Origin: the human T2T-CHM13v2.0 reference genome, Homo sapiens
Reading direction: 5' to 3' (one strand)
Assembly: GCF_009914755.1 (NCBI RefSeq)
Contig: NC_060936.1
Length of the DNA stretch: 64,000 nucleotides
The notes beneath the pieces were generated by a model. That model had not been told where the DNA came from and did not search any database. It saw only the letters and a list, made by a program, of their open reading frames with translations. Positions 39,001 through 49,000 of this stretch are shown piece by piece. The stretch's first letter is position 1; every line of letters starts with the position of its first letter. The position numbers and the translations under genes were made by a program.

Positions 39001-41928
39001 TTGTTGGACATTTGGGTTGGTTCCAAGTCTTTGCTATTGTGAATAGTGCCACAGTAAACATATGTGTGCATGTGTCTTTATAGCAGCATGTTTTATAATC
39101 CTTTGGGTATATACCCAGTAATGGGATGGCTGGGTCAAATGGTATTTCTAGTTCTAGATCCCTGAGGAATCGCCACACTGACTTCCACAATGGTTGAACT
39201 AGTTTACAGTCCCACCAACAGTGTAAAAGTGTTCCTATTTCTCCACATCCTCTCCGGCACCTGTTGTTTCCTGACTTTTTAATGATTGCCATTCTAACTG
39301 GTGTGAGATGGTATCTCACTGTGGTTTTGATTTGCATTTCTCTGATGGCCAGTGATGGTGAGCATTTTTTCATGTGTTTTTTGGCTACATAAATGTCTCC
39401 TTTTGAGAAGTGTCTGTTCATATCCTTCACCCACTTTTTGATGGGGTTGTTTGTTTTTTTCTTGTAAATTTGTTTGAGTTCATTGTAGTTTCTGGATATT
39501 AGCCCTTTGTCAGATGAGTAGATTGCAAAAATTTTCTCCCATTCTGTAGGTTGACTGTTCACTCTGATGGTAGTTTCTTTTGCTGTGCAGAAGCTCTTTA
39601 GTTTAATTAGATCCCATTTGTCAATTTTGGCTTTTGTTGCCATTGCTTTTGGTGTTTTAGACACGAAGTCCTTGCCCATGCCTATGTCCTGAATGGTATT
39701 GCCTAGATTTTCTTCTAGGGTTTTTATGATTTTAGGTCTAACATTTAAGTCTTCAATCCATCTTGAATTAATTTTTGTATAAGGTGTAAGGAAGGGATCC
39801 AGTTTCAGCTTTCTACATATGGCTAGCCAGTTTTCCCAGCACCATTTATTAAATAGGGAATCCTTTCCCCATTTCTTGTTTTTGTCAGGTTTGTCAAAGA
39901 TCAGATAGCTGTAGATAAGCAGCATTATTTCTGAGGGCTCTGTTCTGTTCCATTGGTCTATATCTCTGTTTTGGTACCAGTGCCATGCTGTTTTGTTACT
40001 GTAGCCTTGCAGTATAGTTTGAAGTCAGATAGCATGATGCCTTCAGCTTTGTTCTTTTGGCTTAGGATTGCCTTGGCAATGTGGGCTCTGTTTTGGTTCC
40101 ATATGAACTTTAAAGTAGTTTTTTCCAATTCTGTGAAGAAAGTCATTGGTAGCTTTATGGGGCTGGCATTGAATCTATAAATTACCTTGGGCAGTATGGG
40201 CATTTTCACGATATTGATTCTTCCTACCCATGAGCATGGAATGTTCTTCCATTTGTTTGTATCCTCTTTTATTTCATTGAGCAGTGGTTTGTAGTTCTCC
40301 TTGAAGAGATCCTTCACGTCCCTTGTAAGTTGGATTCCTAGGTATTTTATTCTCTTTGAAGCAATTGTGAATGGGAGTTCACTCATGATTTGGCTCTCTG
40401 TTTGTCTGTTATTGGTGTATTAGAATGCTTTTGATTTTTGCACACTGATTTTGTATCCTGAGACTTTGCTGAAGTTGCCTATCAGCTTAAGGAGATTTTG
40501 GGCTTAGATGATGGGGTTTTCTAGATATACAATCATGTCATCTGCAAACAGGGACAATTTGACTTCCTCTTTTCCTAGCTGAATACCCTCTATTTCTTTC
40601 TCCTGCCTAATTGCCCTGGCCAGAACTTCCAACACTATGTTGAATAGGAGTGGTGAGAGAGGGCATCCCTGTCTTGTGCCAGTTTTCAAAGGGAATGCTT
40701 CCAGTTTTTGCCCATTCAGTATGACATTGCCTGTGGGTTTGTCATAGATAACTCTTATTATTTGCAGATATGTCCCATCAGTACCTAATTTATTGAGAGT
40801 TTTTAGCACGAAGGTTGTTGAATTTTCTCAAAGGCCTTTTCTGCATCTATTGAGATAATCATGTGGTTTTTGTCGTTGGTTCTGTTTATATGCTGGATTA
40901 CGTTTACTGATTTGCGTATGTTGAACCAGCCTTGTATCTCAGGGATGAAGCCCACTTGATCATGGTGGATAAGCTTTTTGATGTGCTGCTGGATTCGATT
41001 TGCCAGTATTTTACTGAGGATTTTTGCATCGATGTTCATTAGGGATATTGGTCTAAAATTCTCTTTTTTTGTTGTGTCTCTGCCAGGCTTTGGTATCAGG
41101 ATGATGCTGGCCTCATAAAATGAGTTAGGGAGGATTCCCTCTTTTTCTGTTGATTGGAATAGTTTCAGAAGAAATGGTACCAGCTCCTCCTTGTACCTCT
41201 GGTAGAATTCGACTGTGAATCCCTCTGGTCCTGGACTTTTTTTGGTTGGTAAGCTATTAATTATTGCCTCAATTTCAGAGCATGTTATTGGTCTATTTGG
41301 AGATTCAACTTCTTCCTGGTTTAGTCTTGGGAGGGTGTATGTGTTGAGGAATTTATCCATTTCTTCTAGATTTTGTAGTTTATTTGCATAGAGGTGTTTA
41401 TAGTATTCTCTGATGGTAGTTTGTATTTCTGTGGGATCGGTGGTGACATCCCCTTTATCATTTTTTTATTGCATCTATTTGATTCTTCTCTCTTTTCTTC
41501 TTTATTAGTCTTGCTAGCAGTCTATCAATTTTGTTGATCTTTTCAAAAAACCAGCTCCTGGATTCACTGATTTTTTGAAGGGTTTTTTGTGTCTCTATTT
41601 CCTTCAGTTCTGCTCTGATCTTAGTTATTTCTTGCCTTCTGCTAGCTTTTGAATGTGTTTGCTCTTGCTTCTCTAGTTCTTTTAATTGTGACGTTAGGGT
41701 GTCAATTTTAAATCCTTCCTGCTTTCTCTTGTGGGCATTTAGTGCTATAAATTTCCCCCTACACACGGCTTTCGATGTGTCCCAGAGATTCTGGTATGTT
41801 GTGTCTTTGTTCTCATTGGTTTCAAAGAACATCTTTATTTCTGCCTTCATTTCGTTATGTACCCAGTAGTCATTCAGGAGCAGGTTGTTCAGTTTCCATG
41901 TGGTTGTGCGGTTTTGAGTGAGTTTCTT

Positions 41929-46081: not shown

Positions 46082-49000
46082 TTTGATCGCACTGTGTTCT
46101 GAGAGACAGTTTGTTATAATTTCTATTCTTTTACATTTGGTGAGGAGTGCTTTGCTTCCAACTATGTGGTCAGTTTTGGAATAGGCGTGGTGTGGTGCTG
46201 AAAGGAATGTATATTCTGTTGATTTGGGGTGGAAAGTTCTGCAGATGTCCATTAGGTCCACCTGTTGCAGAGCTGAGTTCAGTTCCTGGATATCCTTGTT
46301 AACTTTCTATCTCGTTGATCTGTCTAATGTTGACAGTGGGGTGTTAAAGTCTCCCATTATTATTGTGTGGGAGTCTAAGTCTCTTTGTAGGTCTCTAAAG
46401 ACTTGCTTTATGAATCTGGGTGCTCCTGTATTGGGTGCATATATATTTAGGATAGTTAGCTCTTCTTGTTGAATTGATCCCTTTACCATTATGTAATGGC
46501 CTTCTTTGTCCCTTTTGATATTTGTTGGTTTAAAGTCTGTTTTATCAGAGACTAGGATTGCAACCCCTGCCTTTTTTTGTTTTCCATTTGCTTGGTAGAT
46601 CTTCCTCCATCCCTTTATTTTGAGCCTATGTGTGTCTCTGCATGTGAGATGGGTTTCCTGAATACAGCACCCTGATGGGTCTTGACTCTTTATCCAATTT
46701 GCCAGTCTGTGTCTTTTCATTGGAGCATTTAGCCCATTTACATTTAAAGTTAATGTTATTATGTGTGAATTTGATCCTGTCATTATGATGTTAGCTGGTG
46801 ATTTTGCTCGTTAGTTGATGCAGTTTCTTCTTAGCCTCGATGGTCTTCACAATTTGGCATGTTTTTGCAGCGGCTGGTACTGGTTGTTCCTTTTCATGTT
46901 TAGTGCTTCCTTCAGGAGCTCTTTTAGGGCAGGCCTGGTGGTGACAAAATCTCTCAGCATTTGCTTGTCTGTAAAGGATTTTATTTCTCCTTCACTTATG
47001 AAGCTTAGTTTGGCTGGATATGAAATTCTGGGTTGAAAATTCTTTTCTTTAGGAATGTTGAATATTGGCCCCCACTCTCTTCTGGCTTGTAGAGTTTCTG
47101 CCGAGAGATCAGCTGTTAGTCTGATGGGCTTCCCTTTGTGGGTAACCCGACCTTTCTCTCTGGCTGCCCTTGACATTTTTTCCTTCATTTCAACTTTGGT
47201 GAATCTGACAATTATGTGTCTTGGAGTTGCTCTTCTCGAAGAGTATCTTTGTGGCATTCTCTGTATTTCCTGAATCTGAATGTTGGCGTGCCCTGCTAGA
47301 TTGGGGAAGTTCTCCTGGATAATATCCTGCAGAGTGTTTTCCAACTTGGTTCCATTCTTCCCGTCACTTTCAGGTACACCAATCAGACGTAGATTTGGTC
47401 TTTTCACAGTCCCTTATTTCTTGGAGGCTTTGTTCGTTTCTTTTTATTCTTTTTTCTCTAAACTTCTCTTCTTGCTTCATTTCATTCATTTGATCTTCCA
47501 TCACTGATAACCCTTTCTTCCAGTTGATCGAATCGGCTACTGAGGCTTGTGCATTCGTCACGTAGTTCTCTTGCCATGGTTTTCAGCTCCATCAGGTCCT
47601 TTAAGGACTTCTCGGCATTGGTTATTCTATTTAGCCATTCGTTTAATTTTTTTTTAAGAAAGATCTTTAAGTTTACTACAAAGGCCAAAGGTAGATGTAT
47701 AGGTTTCATGGAAGGAATGAATAAGGCAGTGAAATGCTGCAGAGACTCACAAGAATAAGAACCAGTCATTTGAGTTGGCAATATTAGAAAATTTAGAAAA
47801 GGCAATTTTAGTGGAAGTAGTAGTGAAAGTAAGATTTTGAAGATGTTAGGATACAATCTCATGTTTTCAAACCACAAGCTGAAATGGAGACAATGTGTTA
47901 AAATATTTAAAATTGGAATTATCCCAGAAAACGTAGTCATTATAGTTATGCTACTATAGTTAAAGTAGGAGTGGTAAAGCTAACTCCTTATAATAGGAGG
48001 GGAAGTAGATTCATGGAAAGATTTTAATTTTTTGGATAAACTGAAAAAAGGTGTAAAGAGAGATGCATATAAGGTGCTAGAAATGAGGGAAAGAGGTTAA
48101 AGAACATGTAGGATAAACTTTAGAAAAGGAGATTAATTTTTCTCCTTCTGGGGGATAGGAAATTTTTTAGATGAATAATTGTGTTAGATTTTTTTAGATT
48201 AATAATTGTCAATCTATGAGATTAGTTTTCAGTATTCCGTTTTTTGGATTAGCTAGTTTCTTAGCTTGTGTATTAGTGTCAAGTATGCTTGCCTAGAGTA
48301 GGAGTTCAATACATGGCTGTTCTCATTAGTGGTGCTGTTATTTTCTCTATTTGAACATGTTACTGCTTCTTACCACCACCAGTGAGTAGACAAAAGAGAG
48401 TCCATTAAGGTCAAACCAGATAACTAACTCTATTTGGTTTATCAGTACTGCATTTCATAATCATAAGTTGGCTGGCCATGATTCCTTCTGCTGTTTATAT
48501 TTCATCTTCATTATCTTGCATTGTACTTGAAACAACCTATACTTTTGTTCATTCATGTCTTGATTTGTTTTTCAGTGGTCATTCTAGTTGCAATTTTTTT
48601 TATTCTAAGGAAACTTGCTTTATGCCGCTGGAGATTTGCACATTTTACTTCTATGTACTCACTTAAGTACATAGTGTTAATGGCAGTCGCATGACTCATA
48701 GTCTGCATAAGCATAAATTAACTCCAGTACCTCTGTAGTATGCCCCTTTGAGATTGCTCTGGAAGACCACCCAGAAGTCTGAATTTACACAGACTGCAAA
48801 GACCCATTGAACTTAAGAAAACCCAGCAGCACTGACTGACCAAATATACCTGCATCTTTCAGTATGAACGAGCTATCCATTTGCTCTTGATTGAGGTTCA
48901 AACTGTGGATCTTAAACTATAAAGGGCTTTATGGGCTGAATTATGGATACTTTAAGCAAGACCTCTTCCTTCAAATAGAGTGCTTTGCACATAGTGAGCA

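What the first reader, a model, noticed from the sequence alone, without database searches (positions are those of the whole stretch)
39256..46718. Two nested L1s of different age share at least 8 apparently private variants: patchy gene conversion in both direct and inverted orientation
Seen: the outer and inner L1 differ at many subfamily-type sites (3'UTR gttaaatga vs ctagatga; NCLS vs NYLS; TYL vs TYF; EIEA vs EIVA). Yet they carry the same base at sites where I recall all young L1PA consensi differ. Direct-repeat pairs (outer/inner): 39256/42580 (NRCWR to NRCRR), 39554/42878 (VNRQP to VNSQP), 40010/43335 (LYYK to LYCK). Inverted-repeat pairs: 40939/45156 (IPGM to IPE), 46088/44146 (silent), 46186/44048 (HHTY to HHAY), 46511/43723 (silent), 46718/43516 (APIK to APMK). 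Most are not CpG-decay changes, and six of eight are A/T to G/C. Inference: repeated short-tract non-allelic gene conversion, possibly GC-biased, inside the nest. This could also patch or maintain the ORF2 frame. Alternatives are a shared source lineage or an assembly artefact.
Basis: partly seen in the sequence, partly recalled or inferred. Interest (0 to 1): 0.8.

Follow-up and report, generated by a model that had tools for sequence, protein, structure and literature searches.

The report
Nested L1 copies share rare mutations
An old L1 retrotransposon and a younger L1 that landed inside it share about ten times more rare point mutations than unrelated L1 copies do, which is best explained by small patches of sequence copied between the two neighbours, a process already known for Alu repeats.

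Summary
The outer L1 lies on the minus strand (38591-41928 and 46053-~47650). It is interrupted by one younger L1 (41929-46052) built by twin priming: its 3' part is a direct repeat of the outer copy and its 5' part is an inverted repeat.

All 8 coordinate pairs carry the same base in both copies. I compared them with 66 other L1 copies from the same genome. The two copies share 11 rare variants that are not CpG decay, where about 1-2 are expected from unrelated L1 pairs (P 1e-4 to 1e-8, depending on thresholds). A twelfth site, 39256, is less private.

Exact k-mer scans of the whole genome find each variant in 10-309 other copies. No other L1 combines more than two of them, so a shared source lineage is excluded.

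The excess is strong in the inverted parts (5 vs 0.25 and 4 vs 0.41) and marginal in the direct part (2 vs 0.32).

Best reading (about 0.6): repeated short-patch non-allelic gene conversion.

Caveats:
- Patches are at most 15-124 bp.
- Subfamily-diagnostic sites are not homogenised more than in controls.
- GC bias is not significant.
- ORF maintenance is not supported.
- Direction and timing need ape orthologues.

This is a new example of a known kind.

The parts
38591..41928 (-). Outer (older) L1, 3' piece: T-run/poly(A) end at 38591-38600, 3'UTR, and ORF2 3' two-thirds
   Evidence: Best relatives elsewhere are 94-96% identical in the 3'UTR.
41929..43375 (-). Inner (younger) L1, 3' segment with its poly(A) (T-run 41930-41944). 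It is a direct repeat of outer 38597-40051.
   Evidence: 1457 columns, 85 mismatches. Best relatives are 97-98% identical in the 3'UTR.
43376..46052 (+). Inner L1, 5' segment inverted by twin priming (ORF2 start to about codon 867). It is an inverted repeat of outer 46859-46053 and 41928-40045. In L1 coordinates it overlaps the 3' segment by 7 bp.
   Evidence: (I1-I4)
46053..47650 (-). Outer L1, 5' piece (ORF2 start, part of ORF1; 5' truncated)
41917..41928 (.). Target-site duplication of the inner insertion, left copy. The right copy is about 46055-46066.
   Evidence: In uninterrupted relatives the same 12 bases align to both places (for example L040, L043, L046).
46055..46066 (.). Target-site duplication, right copy (one mismatch to the left copy)
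46800..46800 (.). Shared rare variant, pairs with inner 43434 (A>C in L1 sense)
   Evidence: 0/7 outer-like, 1/5 inner-like carriers
46718..46718 (.). Shared rare variant, pairs with inner 43516 (T>G; I>M)
   Evidence: 0/7, 0/6; 30 exact k-mer matches genome-wide
46511..46511 (.). Shared rare variant, pairs with inner 43723 (A>G, silent). It lies in a 120-bp identical run, 46400-46519.
   Evidence: 0/7, 0/5; 42 genome-wide
46186..46186 (.). Shared rare variant, pairs with inner 44048 (A>G; T>A in protein; creates CpG)
   Evidence: 0/8, 0/8; 12 genome-wide
46088..46088 (.). Shared rare variant, pairs with inner 44146 (A>G, silent; creates CpG)
   Evidence: 0/9, 0/8; 31 genome-wide
40939..40939 (.). 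Shared rare variant, pairs with inner 45156 (G>A; G>E)
   Evidence: 0/13, 0/9; 88 genome-wide
40875..40875 (.). Shared rare variant, pairs with inner 45220 (A>C; K>N; creates CpG).
   Evidence: 1/13, 0/15
40156..40156 (.). Shared rare variant, pairs with inner 45940 (C>A).
   Evidence: 0/17, 2/22
40071..40071 (.). Shared rare variant, pairs with inner 46026 (T>G).
   Evidence: 1/18, 0/21
40010..40010 (.). Shared variant in the direct part, pairs with inner 43335 (A>G). Rare in the panels, but 311 exact matches genome-wide.
   Evidence: 0/18, 0/18
39554..39554 (.). Shared rare variant in the direct part, pairs with inner 42878 (G>T; R>S)
   Evidence: 0/22, 0/25; 39 genome-wide with the outer copy's flanks
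39195..39318 (.). 124-bp run identical to inner 42519-42642. It holds 39256 (T>C; W>R) and 39287, where the outer copy carries the inner-like state. 39358, also inner-like in the outer copy, lies 40 bp beyond one mismatch. This is the best candidate for an inner-to-outer patch.
   Evidence: only 2 mismatches in the 200-bp window 39136-39335; 62 genome-wide for 39256
40598..40724 (.). 127-bp run identical to inner 45372-45498. It holds 40609, where both copies carry the inner-like state.

Best explanation
After the younger L1 inserted into the older one, the two homologous copies lay 2-6 kb apart on one chromosome. They then repeatedly used each other as repair or replication template. Each time a very short patch was copied, a few bases to about 120 bp. 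Private point mutations of one copy were thereby written into the other. This is non-allelic (ectopic) gene conversion with short, discontinuous tracts. It acted mainly between the inverted-repeat arms. The amount is roughly 14% of differing sites homogenised over the life of the pair. That figure is inferred from 11 shared against 131 unshared rare variants, assuming both directions are equally likely.

Shown: the nest structure, the excess of shared rare variants, their rarity genome-wide, and the lack of any other L1 carrying the combination.

Inferred: that the exchange happened after insertion, its direction, its patch size, and the molecular route (synthesis-dependent strand annealing after a break, fold-back pairing of the inverted arms, or template switching).
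For: 1. Structure. One twin-primed inner L1 sits inside an outer L1. This gives an 808-nt and an 1886-nt inverted repeat at 94-95% identity and a 1457-nt direct repeat at 94%.

2. Excess sharing. There are 11 shared rare non-CpG-decay variants in 4129 columns, with 90 outer-only and 41 inner-only rare variants. Across 886 unrelated outer-like x inner-like pairs, 245 shared rare variants were seen against a naive product expectation of 315.7. That predicts 0.99 for this pair (P 9e-9). Within-group calibrations predict 1.39 and 1.98 (P 3e-7 and 8e-6).

3. Robustness. With rare defined as <=5%: 9 vs 0.67. With zero carriers: 7 vs 0.38. With panel depth >=20: 6 vs 0.75 (P 1.3e-4). With <=20%: 14 vs 2.05. 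In the four threshold settings with rare defined as 10% or less, the highest count in any of 950 other cross pairs was 3-4; at the 20% threshold one pair (L039-INNER) reached 7, against 14 for this pair.

4. By part. Inverted arm next to the insertion: 5 vs 0.25 (P 6e-6). Other inverted arm: 4 vs 0.41 (P 9e-4). Direct part: 2 vs 0.32 (P 0.04).

5. Not a lineage. Exact k-mer scans of the 3.1-Gb genome give 12-311 matches per variant. Outside this locus only three places hold two of the variants within 8 kb, and none holds three (the 40010 list was checked for its first 100 of 311 places only).

6. Identical runs. There are three identical runs of 120 bp or more, against 0.23 expected from a geometric model and about 0.6 per 4136 columns in 247 unrelated cross pairs, none of which had more than 2. 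Two of the three runs contain shared rare or 'wrong-type' sites.

7. Precedent. Excess sharing of non-diagnostic mutations between neighbouring Alu copies within about 10 kb is the published signature of non-allelic gene conversion. Conversion is said to act on stretches from about 10 nt (passages read in PMC8230782 and PMC6598467).
Against: 1. Patch size. Patches would have to be very short. The nearest outer/inner mismatches bound the shared sites to runs of 15, 19, 20, 30, 34, 46, 61, 62, 68, 72, 120 and 124 bp. The mean run, 55.9, is not significantly longer than for a random identical column, 43.7 (P 0.12).

2. Diagnostic sites. Subfamily-diagnostic sites show no extra homogenisation. 11 of 58 are alike in the two copies, against a mean of 26% in 396 unrelated cross pairs. 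The outer copy has the inner-like state at 5 sites (8.2 expected from panel frequencies) and the inner copy has the outer-like state at 6 (8.2 expected). A uniform 14% conversion should have added about 6 sites. This is compatible only if these two copies are 'cleaner' than the mixed panels.

3. GC bias is not significant.

4. Panel depth. Depth is only 12-17 copies in the arm with the strongest signal. The panels were picked by a search that favours uncommon words.

5. One genome only. There are no orthologues, no reads and no second human haplotype, so neither direction, nor timing, nor assembly correctness was tested.
Confidence: 0.6

Rival explanations
1. Exchange at the moment of insertion. 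The new L1 cDNA was homologous to the L1 it was landing in. It paired with the flanking outer copy during integration and repair, and a single episode of patchy mismatch repair left the shared variants.
For: The inner copy is a twin-primed insertion into homologous sequence, so heteroduplex partners were at hand. One long heteroduplex with short-patch repair would explain shared sites interleaved with unshared ones. The signal is densest in the arm that abuts the insertion junction (5 of 11 sites in 808 of 4136 columns, binomial P 0.046).
Against: There is no deletion or chimeric junction at the insertion. The target-site duplication is intact. The shared sites reach up to 6 kb from their partners. 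Nothing in the data dates the exchange.
Confidence: 0.1
2. Assembly or polishing artefact. Variants of one copy were written into the other during consensus building.
For: Nothing positive from any call. It cannot be excluded, because only the finished assembly was available.
Against: The copies differ at 231 of about 4150 columns, on average one mismatch per 18 bp. Several shared sites have true mismatches 4-10 bp away, so reads would not cross-map. That the whole 9-kb nest is shorter than a long read is my own knowledge of the assembly method, not a call.
Confidence: 0.1
3. Independent parallel mutations at mutable sites (chance).
For: Each variant recurs in 10-309 other L1 copies genome-wide, so the sites can mutate this way repeatedly. 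40010 (311 matches) and 39256 (62 matches; 10/26 in one panel) are not truly private. Unrelated pairs do share some rare variants: 245 over 886 pairs.
Against: The empirical null, which includes such hotspots, predicts 1-2 shared sites against 11 observed (P 1e-4 to 1e-8). In the four threshold settings with rare defined as 10% or less, none of 950 other cross pairs exceeded 4; at the 20% threshold one pair reached 7, against 14 for this pair.
Confidence: 0.04
4. Shared source lineage. Both copies descend from a minor L1 lineage that carried these variants.
For: The inner copy's private differences are somewhat enriched in synonymous changes (21 of 52 against 27% expected at random). Some of them therefore predate insertion and are lineage variants.
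Against: The copies differ at 47 subfamily-diagnostic sites interleaved with the shared sites. No other L1 in the genome holds three of the variants, and only three places hold two. Carriers in both panels number 0-2 per site.
Confidence: 0.02
5. A local templated-mutation process other than classical conversion. One example is replication template switching between the inverted arms, copying one or a few bases at a time.
For: The signal is concentrated in the inverted parts. Patches are very short. There is no excess homogenisation at diagnostic sites. 6 of the 11 shared variants are transversions, against 43 of 131 among private ones.
Against: Any templated copying should treat diagnostic and private differences alike, so this does not solve the diagnostic-site puzzle either. 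The spacers of 2-6 kb are long for template switches as I recall them from the literature. The direct part also shows 2-3 shared sites.
Confidence: 0.12

Closest known systems
Non-allelic gene conversion between neighbouring Alu elements (Aleshin and Zhi 2010, as described in passages of PMC8230782 and PMC6598467; the original paper was not held)
   Same: The signature is the same: neighbours within about 10 kb share non-diagnostic (private) mutations more often than distant copies. The scale of distance is the same (2-6 kb here). Short stretches can be converted.
   Different: Here the elements are L1s of two different subfamilies, 94% identical over 4.1 kb, one nested in the other. This is a single locus rather than a genome-wide statistic. 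The signal is mostly in the inverted orientation.
Arm-to-arm gene conversion in large inverted repeats
   Same: It is intrachromosomal exchange between inverted repeats separated by a spacer of a few kb.
   Different: Palindrome arms are kept above 99.9% identical by frequent long-tract conversion. Here the arms stay 5-6% diverged and only isolated sites are shared.
[quoted passage not shown] 1991, seen only as a reference-list entry in PMC5640379) and mosaic young L1s (recalled)
   Same: L1 sequence is replaced by sequence from another L1.
   Different: Those cases are whole or large-segment replacements recognised through diagnostic sites. Here the diagnostic sites are not detectably exchanged.
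Twin-priming L1 insertion (Ostertag and Kazazian model; recalled)
   Same: The inner element has an inverted 5' segment joined to a 3' segment. The two segments are contiguous in L1 coordinates with a 7-bp overlap. The element has one poly(A) and one target-site duplication.
   Different: Nothing differs. It is a textbook case. Its only special point is that it landed in another L1 and so created long inverted repeats.

Membership tests
Non-allelic gene conversion between neighbouring repeats | Two paralogous copies lie close together on one chromosome (within about 10 kb) | tested here: met
   Homologous positions are 1.9-6.0 kb apart.
Non-allelic gene conversion between neighbouring repeats | Shared non-diagnostic (private) variants are in excess over unrelated pairs | tested here: met
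   11 observed against 1-2 expected, P 1e-4 to 1e-8
Non-allelic gene conversion between neighbouring repeats | The variants are not inherited from a common source element | tested here: met
   No other genomic L1 combines three or more of them. Only three places hold two (the 40010 list was checked only in part).
Non-allelic gene conversion between neighbouring repeats | Contiguous tracts or mosaicism at subfamily-diagnostic sites | tested here: inconclusive
   Three identical runs of 120 bp or more against about 0.6 expected. One 124-bp run has 2-3 inner-type states in the outer copy. Overall, though, homogenisation of diagnostic sites is 11/58, not above controls.
Non-allelic gene conversion between neighbouring repeats | Orthologous loci in other species or haplotypes show the pre-conversion state | not testable with these tools
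   Only one human genome is held. It has no relatives in the collection (banner).
GC-biased gene conversion | Weak-to-strong changes are in excess among transferred variants relative to untransferred ones | tested here: not met
   8:3 among shared against 60:45 among private, Fisher P 0.36
Twin-primed (5'-inverted) L1 insertion | A 5' segment inverted relative to the 3' segment; the two contiguous in L1 coordinates with a small overlap or gap; a single poly(A) and flanking target-site duplication | tested here: met
   Segments 43376-46052 (+) and 41929-43375 (-). They overlap by 7 bp of L1 sequence (outer equivalents 40045-40051). T-run at 41930-41944. 12-bp duplication.
Named L1PA subfamilies for the two copies | Match to curated subfamily consensus at diagnostic positions | not tested
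   No repeat library was available. From recall of 3'UTR motifs, the outer looks L1PA6/7-like and the inner L1PA3/4-like. Divergence from relatives is 3.4% and 2.1%.

The most novel reading that the evidence does not exclude
Inverted L1 arms a few kb apart exchange single mismatches or patches of a few bases often enough to spread about one private mutation in seven. They nonetheless stay 5-6% diverged and keep their subfamily-diagnostic differences. This would be a templated point-mutation process at dispersed inverted repeats, for example fold-back heteroduplex with short-patch repair, or template switching. It would be distinct from classical tract conversion. If general, it would create recurrent 'parallel' mutations and distort divergence-based dating of nested repeats.
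Probability: 0.15. Interest if true: 0.6.

Novelty: new member of a known kind. Interest (0 to 1): 0.4.

Why it matters
Sequence exchange between neighbouring repeats is well documented for Alu but little documented for L1. This locus gives a clean single-locus case: two L1s of different age, with 11-12 transferred point variants, calibrated against unrelated copies of the same genome.

If such exchange is common it has three consequences. Divergence-based ages of nested L1s are slightly off. 'Private' mutations of repeats are not independent. Inverted L1 pairs inside genes (here an intron of MSRB3) are sites of recurrent strand exchange, and so potentially of instability.

The same statistic could be run genome-wide on complete assemblies. 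That would measure rate, tract length and orientation dependence of ectopic conversion at 5-6% divergence.

For this locus alone there is no evident functional consequence.

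Tried and rejected
1. GC bias. The spectrum of shared against private variants is not significantly different.

2. ORF2 maintenance. The outer frame is split into pieces of 361, 153, 107, 220, 164, 107 and 167 codons. 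The inner inverted segment is open for 885 codons, but 52 random substitutions leave it free of stops in 13% of 4000 simulations. There is no support for maintenance.

3. Diagnostic-site mosaicism as independent proof. There is no excess.

4. Longer identical runs around the shared sites. Not significant (P 0.12).

5. Sliding-window search for large mosaic segments. None was found. There is only a 200-bp window with 2 mismatches at 39136-39335.

6. Shared-lineage test by k-mer co-occurrence. Rejected.

The inner-like panel for the 5' arm is therefore only 5-8 copies deep.

10. The key Alu paper (PMC2950799) was not held. Four full-text searches for L1-specific gene conversion brought no study of nested L1 pairs. 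The exact phrases 'L1 gene conversion', 'gene conversion between L1', 'gene conversion of L1' and 'LINE-1 gene conversion' occur in 1 paper of the library, and only in its reference list.

11. One search was an empty script.

Full report
**Structure**

The region 38591-47650 is a nest of two L1 elements.

The outer element lies on the minus strand in two pieces. They are 38591-41928 (poly(A) end, 3'UTR, 3' part of ORF2) and 46053 to about 47650 (5' part of ORF2 and part of ORF1).

Between the pieces sits one younger L1, 41929-46052. Its 3' segment (41929-43375, minus strand, T-run at 41930-41944) is a direct repeat of outer 38597-40051. Its 5' segment (43376-46052) is inverted, so it reads in sense on the plus strand. 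It pairs as an inverted repeat with outer 46859-46053 and 41928-40045.

The two inner segments are contiguous in L1 coordinates with a 7-bp overlap. In uninterrupted relatives the same 12 bases align on both sides of the insertion, which marks a target-site duplication. This is the textbook product of twin priming (mechanism recalled, anatomy shown).

Pairwise alignment gives the following:

| Part | Columns | Mismatches |
|---|---|---|
| Direct | 1457 | 85 |
| Inverted, first arm | 1886 | 104 |
| Inverted, second arm | 808 | 42 |

That is about 5.6% divergence.

**Check of the observation**

All 8 coordinate pairs align to each other and carry the same base.

The solved human L1 ORF2 protein has I, T and G where the inner copy's translation, aligned, gives M, A and E. 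It has R and W where the inner copy's translation gives S and R. The outer copy carries the same bases at these sites.

**Reference copies**

The window's own genome could be searched. I gathered three sets of other L1 copies:

- 28 other copies, found with outer 39100-39400. They turned out mostly inner-like, 95-97% identical to the inner copy.
- 39 copies, found with the outer 3'UTR.
- 8 copies, found with inner 44250-44650.

Of 77 loci I dropped 11 before counting:

- the two self hits;
- eight loci that aligned poorly, or at about 80-90% identity, over part of the region (L012, L025, L026, L033, L050, L052, L055, L062);
- one duplicate (L057 = L056).

That leaves 33 outer-like and 33 inner-like copies. 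Depth per column is 36-52 in the direct part but only 12-17 in the 5' arm.

**Rarity of the variants**

39256 has 0/27 carriers among outer-like copies but 10/26 among inner-like copies. That panel was chosen with a query containing the site, by a search that favours uncommon words, so it is biased upward.

Four more shared rare sites exist: 46800, 40875, 40156 and 40071.

Exact whole-genome scans of 20-23-mers carrying each variant gave these match counts, with the two local copies included:

| Site | Matches |
|---|---|
| 39554 (the 21-mer matches the outer copy only) | 39 |
| 46088 | 31 |
| 46186 | 12 |
| 46511 | 42 |
| 46718 | 30 |
| 39256 | 62 |
| 40939 | 88 |
| 40010 | 311 |

Each change therefore recurs elsewhere, and 40010 is not very rare. 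I did not obtain the number of copies carrying the majority base.

**Is the sharing more than chance?**

I called a base rare if at most 10% of the other copies carry it, with depth at least 10 and CpG decay excluded.

- The outer and inner copies share 11 rare bases in 4129 columns. There are 90 outer-only and 41 inner-only rare bases.
- For 886 unrelated outer-like x inner-like pairs, the summed shared count was 245 against 315.7 from the naive product of private counts. That ratio of 0.78 predicts 0.99 shared sites for this pair (P 9e-9).
- Calibrations from within-group pairs, which include shared sublineage variants, predict 1.39 and 1.98 (P 3e-7 and 8e-6).
- The result holds for other thresholds: 9 vs 0.67, 7 vs 0.38, 14 vs 2.05, and 6 vs 0.75 when depth of at least 20 is required (P 1.3e-4).
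- In the four settings with rare defined as 10% or less, the highest count among 950 other cross pairs was 3-4. At the 20% threshold one pair (L039-INNER) reached 7, against 14 for this pair.

By part:

| Part | Shared | Expected | P |
|---|---|---|---|
| 808-bp inverted arm beside the insertion | 5 | 0.25 | 6e-6 |
| 1.9-kb inverted arm | 4 | 0.41 | 9e-4 |
| Direct part | 2 | 0.32 | 0.04 |

The claim is thus strong for the inverted orientation and only marginal for the direct one.

**Shared lineage excluded**

I compared the places of all k-mer matches (for 40010 only the first 100 of 311). Outside this locus only three places hold two of the variants within 8 kb, and none holds three.

The two copies also differ at 47 subfamily-diagnostic sites that are interleaved with the shared sites. 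A common source element cannot explain the pattern.

**What speaks for and against tract-like gene conversion**

For:

- There are three identical runs of 127, 124 and 120 bp. A geometric model expects 0.23. In 247 unrelated cross pairs the rate is about 0.6 per 4136 columns, and none had more than two.
- The 124-bp run (39195-39318) contains 39256 and 39287. Just beyond one mismatch lies 39358. At all three the outer copy carries the state typical of inner-like copies.
- The 200-bp window 39136-39335 has only 2 mismatches.
- This is the best candidate for an inner-to-outer patch.

Against:

- The shared sites are tightly flanked by true mismatches. Identical runs around them are 15 to 124 bp. 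On average they are not significantly longer than for random columns (55.9 vs 43.7, P 0.12).
- Diagnostic sites are not homogenised more than in controls. 11 of 58 are alike, against a control mean of 26%.
- The outer copy has 5 inner-like states against 8.2 expected from panel frequencies. The inner copy has 6 outer-like states against 8.2 expected.
- From 11 shared and 131 unshared rare variants, and assuming both directions are equally likely, about 14% of differing sites would have been homogenised. That should add about 6 diagnostic sites. This fits only if these two copies are purer representatives of their subfamilies than the mixed panels. I could not settle that.

- GC bias. 8 weak-to-strong and 3 strong-to-weak changes among the shared sites, against 60 and 45 among private sites. 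This is not significant (P 0.36). Four of the twelve shared changes create a CpG (39256, 46088, 46186, 40875). I note this without a test.
- ORF2 maintenance. The outer frame is broken into many pieces. The inner inverted segment is open for 885 codons (43424-46081). Its 52 differences from the inner-like majority are 21 synonymous and 31 non-synonymous. In 4000 simulations, 52 random substitutions leave the frame free of stops 13% of the time. This is not remarkable. A truncated, inverted fragment is not under L1 selection anyway (inference).

**Mechanism**

The only explanations that make two particular copies share rare variants are local ones. I judge post-insertional non-allelic gene conversion in many short patches, mainly between the inverted arms, the most likely (about 0.6).

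Rivals:

- one episode of heteroduplex repair at insertion (0.1);
- a different templated process such as template switching at inverted repeats (0.12);
- an assembly artefact (0.1, untested);
- chance (0.04);
- shared lineage (0.02).

**Known context**

Passages in PMC8230782 and PMC6598467 describe two points. A genome-wide analysis of non-diagnostic mutations found significant gene conversion among neighbouring Alus within about 10 kb, falling with distance. Conversion can also act on stretches from about 10 nt. The original paper was not held.

For L1 I found only an old title in a reference list. Four full-text searches brought no study of nested L1 pairs. I do not claim that none exists outside the held library.

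The rate I infer is of the order I recall for human duplicated genes. That is recall, not a call.

**Verdict**

It is best read as a new L1 example of a known process. Interest is moderate. The subfamily names (outer L1PA6/7-like, inner L1PA3/4-like) are recalled from 3'UTR motifs and were not tested. Measured divergence from relatives is 3.4% for the outer copy and 2.1% for the inner.

Noticed in passing
window 43424-46081 (+): The inverted ORF2 fragment of the inner L1 is open from stop to stop for 885 codons (endonuclease and reverse-transcriptase regions, 854 residues aligned to the solved human ORF2 protein). It lies in the sense orientation of the host gene MSRB3, inside an intron. A simulation gives a 13% chance of no stop codon.
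   Followed up: partly
window 40045-41928 / 44168-46052 and 43375-44182 / 46052-46859: The nest creates about 2.7 kb of inverted repeat at 94-95% identity inside an MSRB3 intron. The pre-mRNA could fold into long double-stranded RNA. No RNA fold or editing evidence was looked at.
   Followed up: no
G000:C2:119430005-119434440: The 40010-type variant k-mer occurs twice on opposite strands 4.4 kb apart, with the 39256-type variant k-mer between them. This may be a second inverted L1 pair sharing a rare variant.
   Followed up: no
places listed (for example C23:120141797/120144553, C1:175349750/175361634, C10:116029098/116047314, C5:60871588/60879980/60898079): In five of the eight k-mer lists, the same rare variant turns up in two or three L1 copies less than 30 kb apart. 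I counted about a dozen such pairs by eye. That is far more than random placement in 3.1 Gb would give. They could be segmental duplications, palindromes or further neighbour exchange.
   Followed up: no
G000:C1:55444975-55446680 and G000:C1:233210881-233213452: Two L1 copies elsewhere each carry two of the shared variants (39256+40939 and 46718+40010) at the right spacing. Given 30-311 carriers per variant, this looks like coincidence.
   Followed up: partly
loci L002, L005, L015, L017, L021, L031, L034, L061 and others: Many of the fetched L1 copies are themselves 5'-inverted (plus and minus alignment pieces that abut in L1 coordinates). Twin priming is common in this sample.
   Followed up: no
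A query from the outer copy (39100-39400) retrieved mainly inner-like copies at 98-99% identity, and 10 of 26 of them carry the 39256 variant. One cause is that the genome search seeds on uncommon words. Another is that the outer copy has inner-type states at 39256, 39287 and 39358. Panels picked this way are biased inside the query region.
   Followed up: partly
window 25489-25672 and 34119-34350: Two further L1 3'-end fragments in the window: one 86-91% identical to the two 3'UTRs, the other an older fragment 73-75% identical.
   Followed up: no
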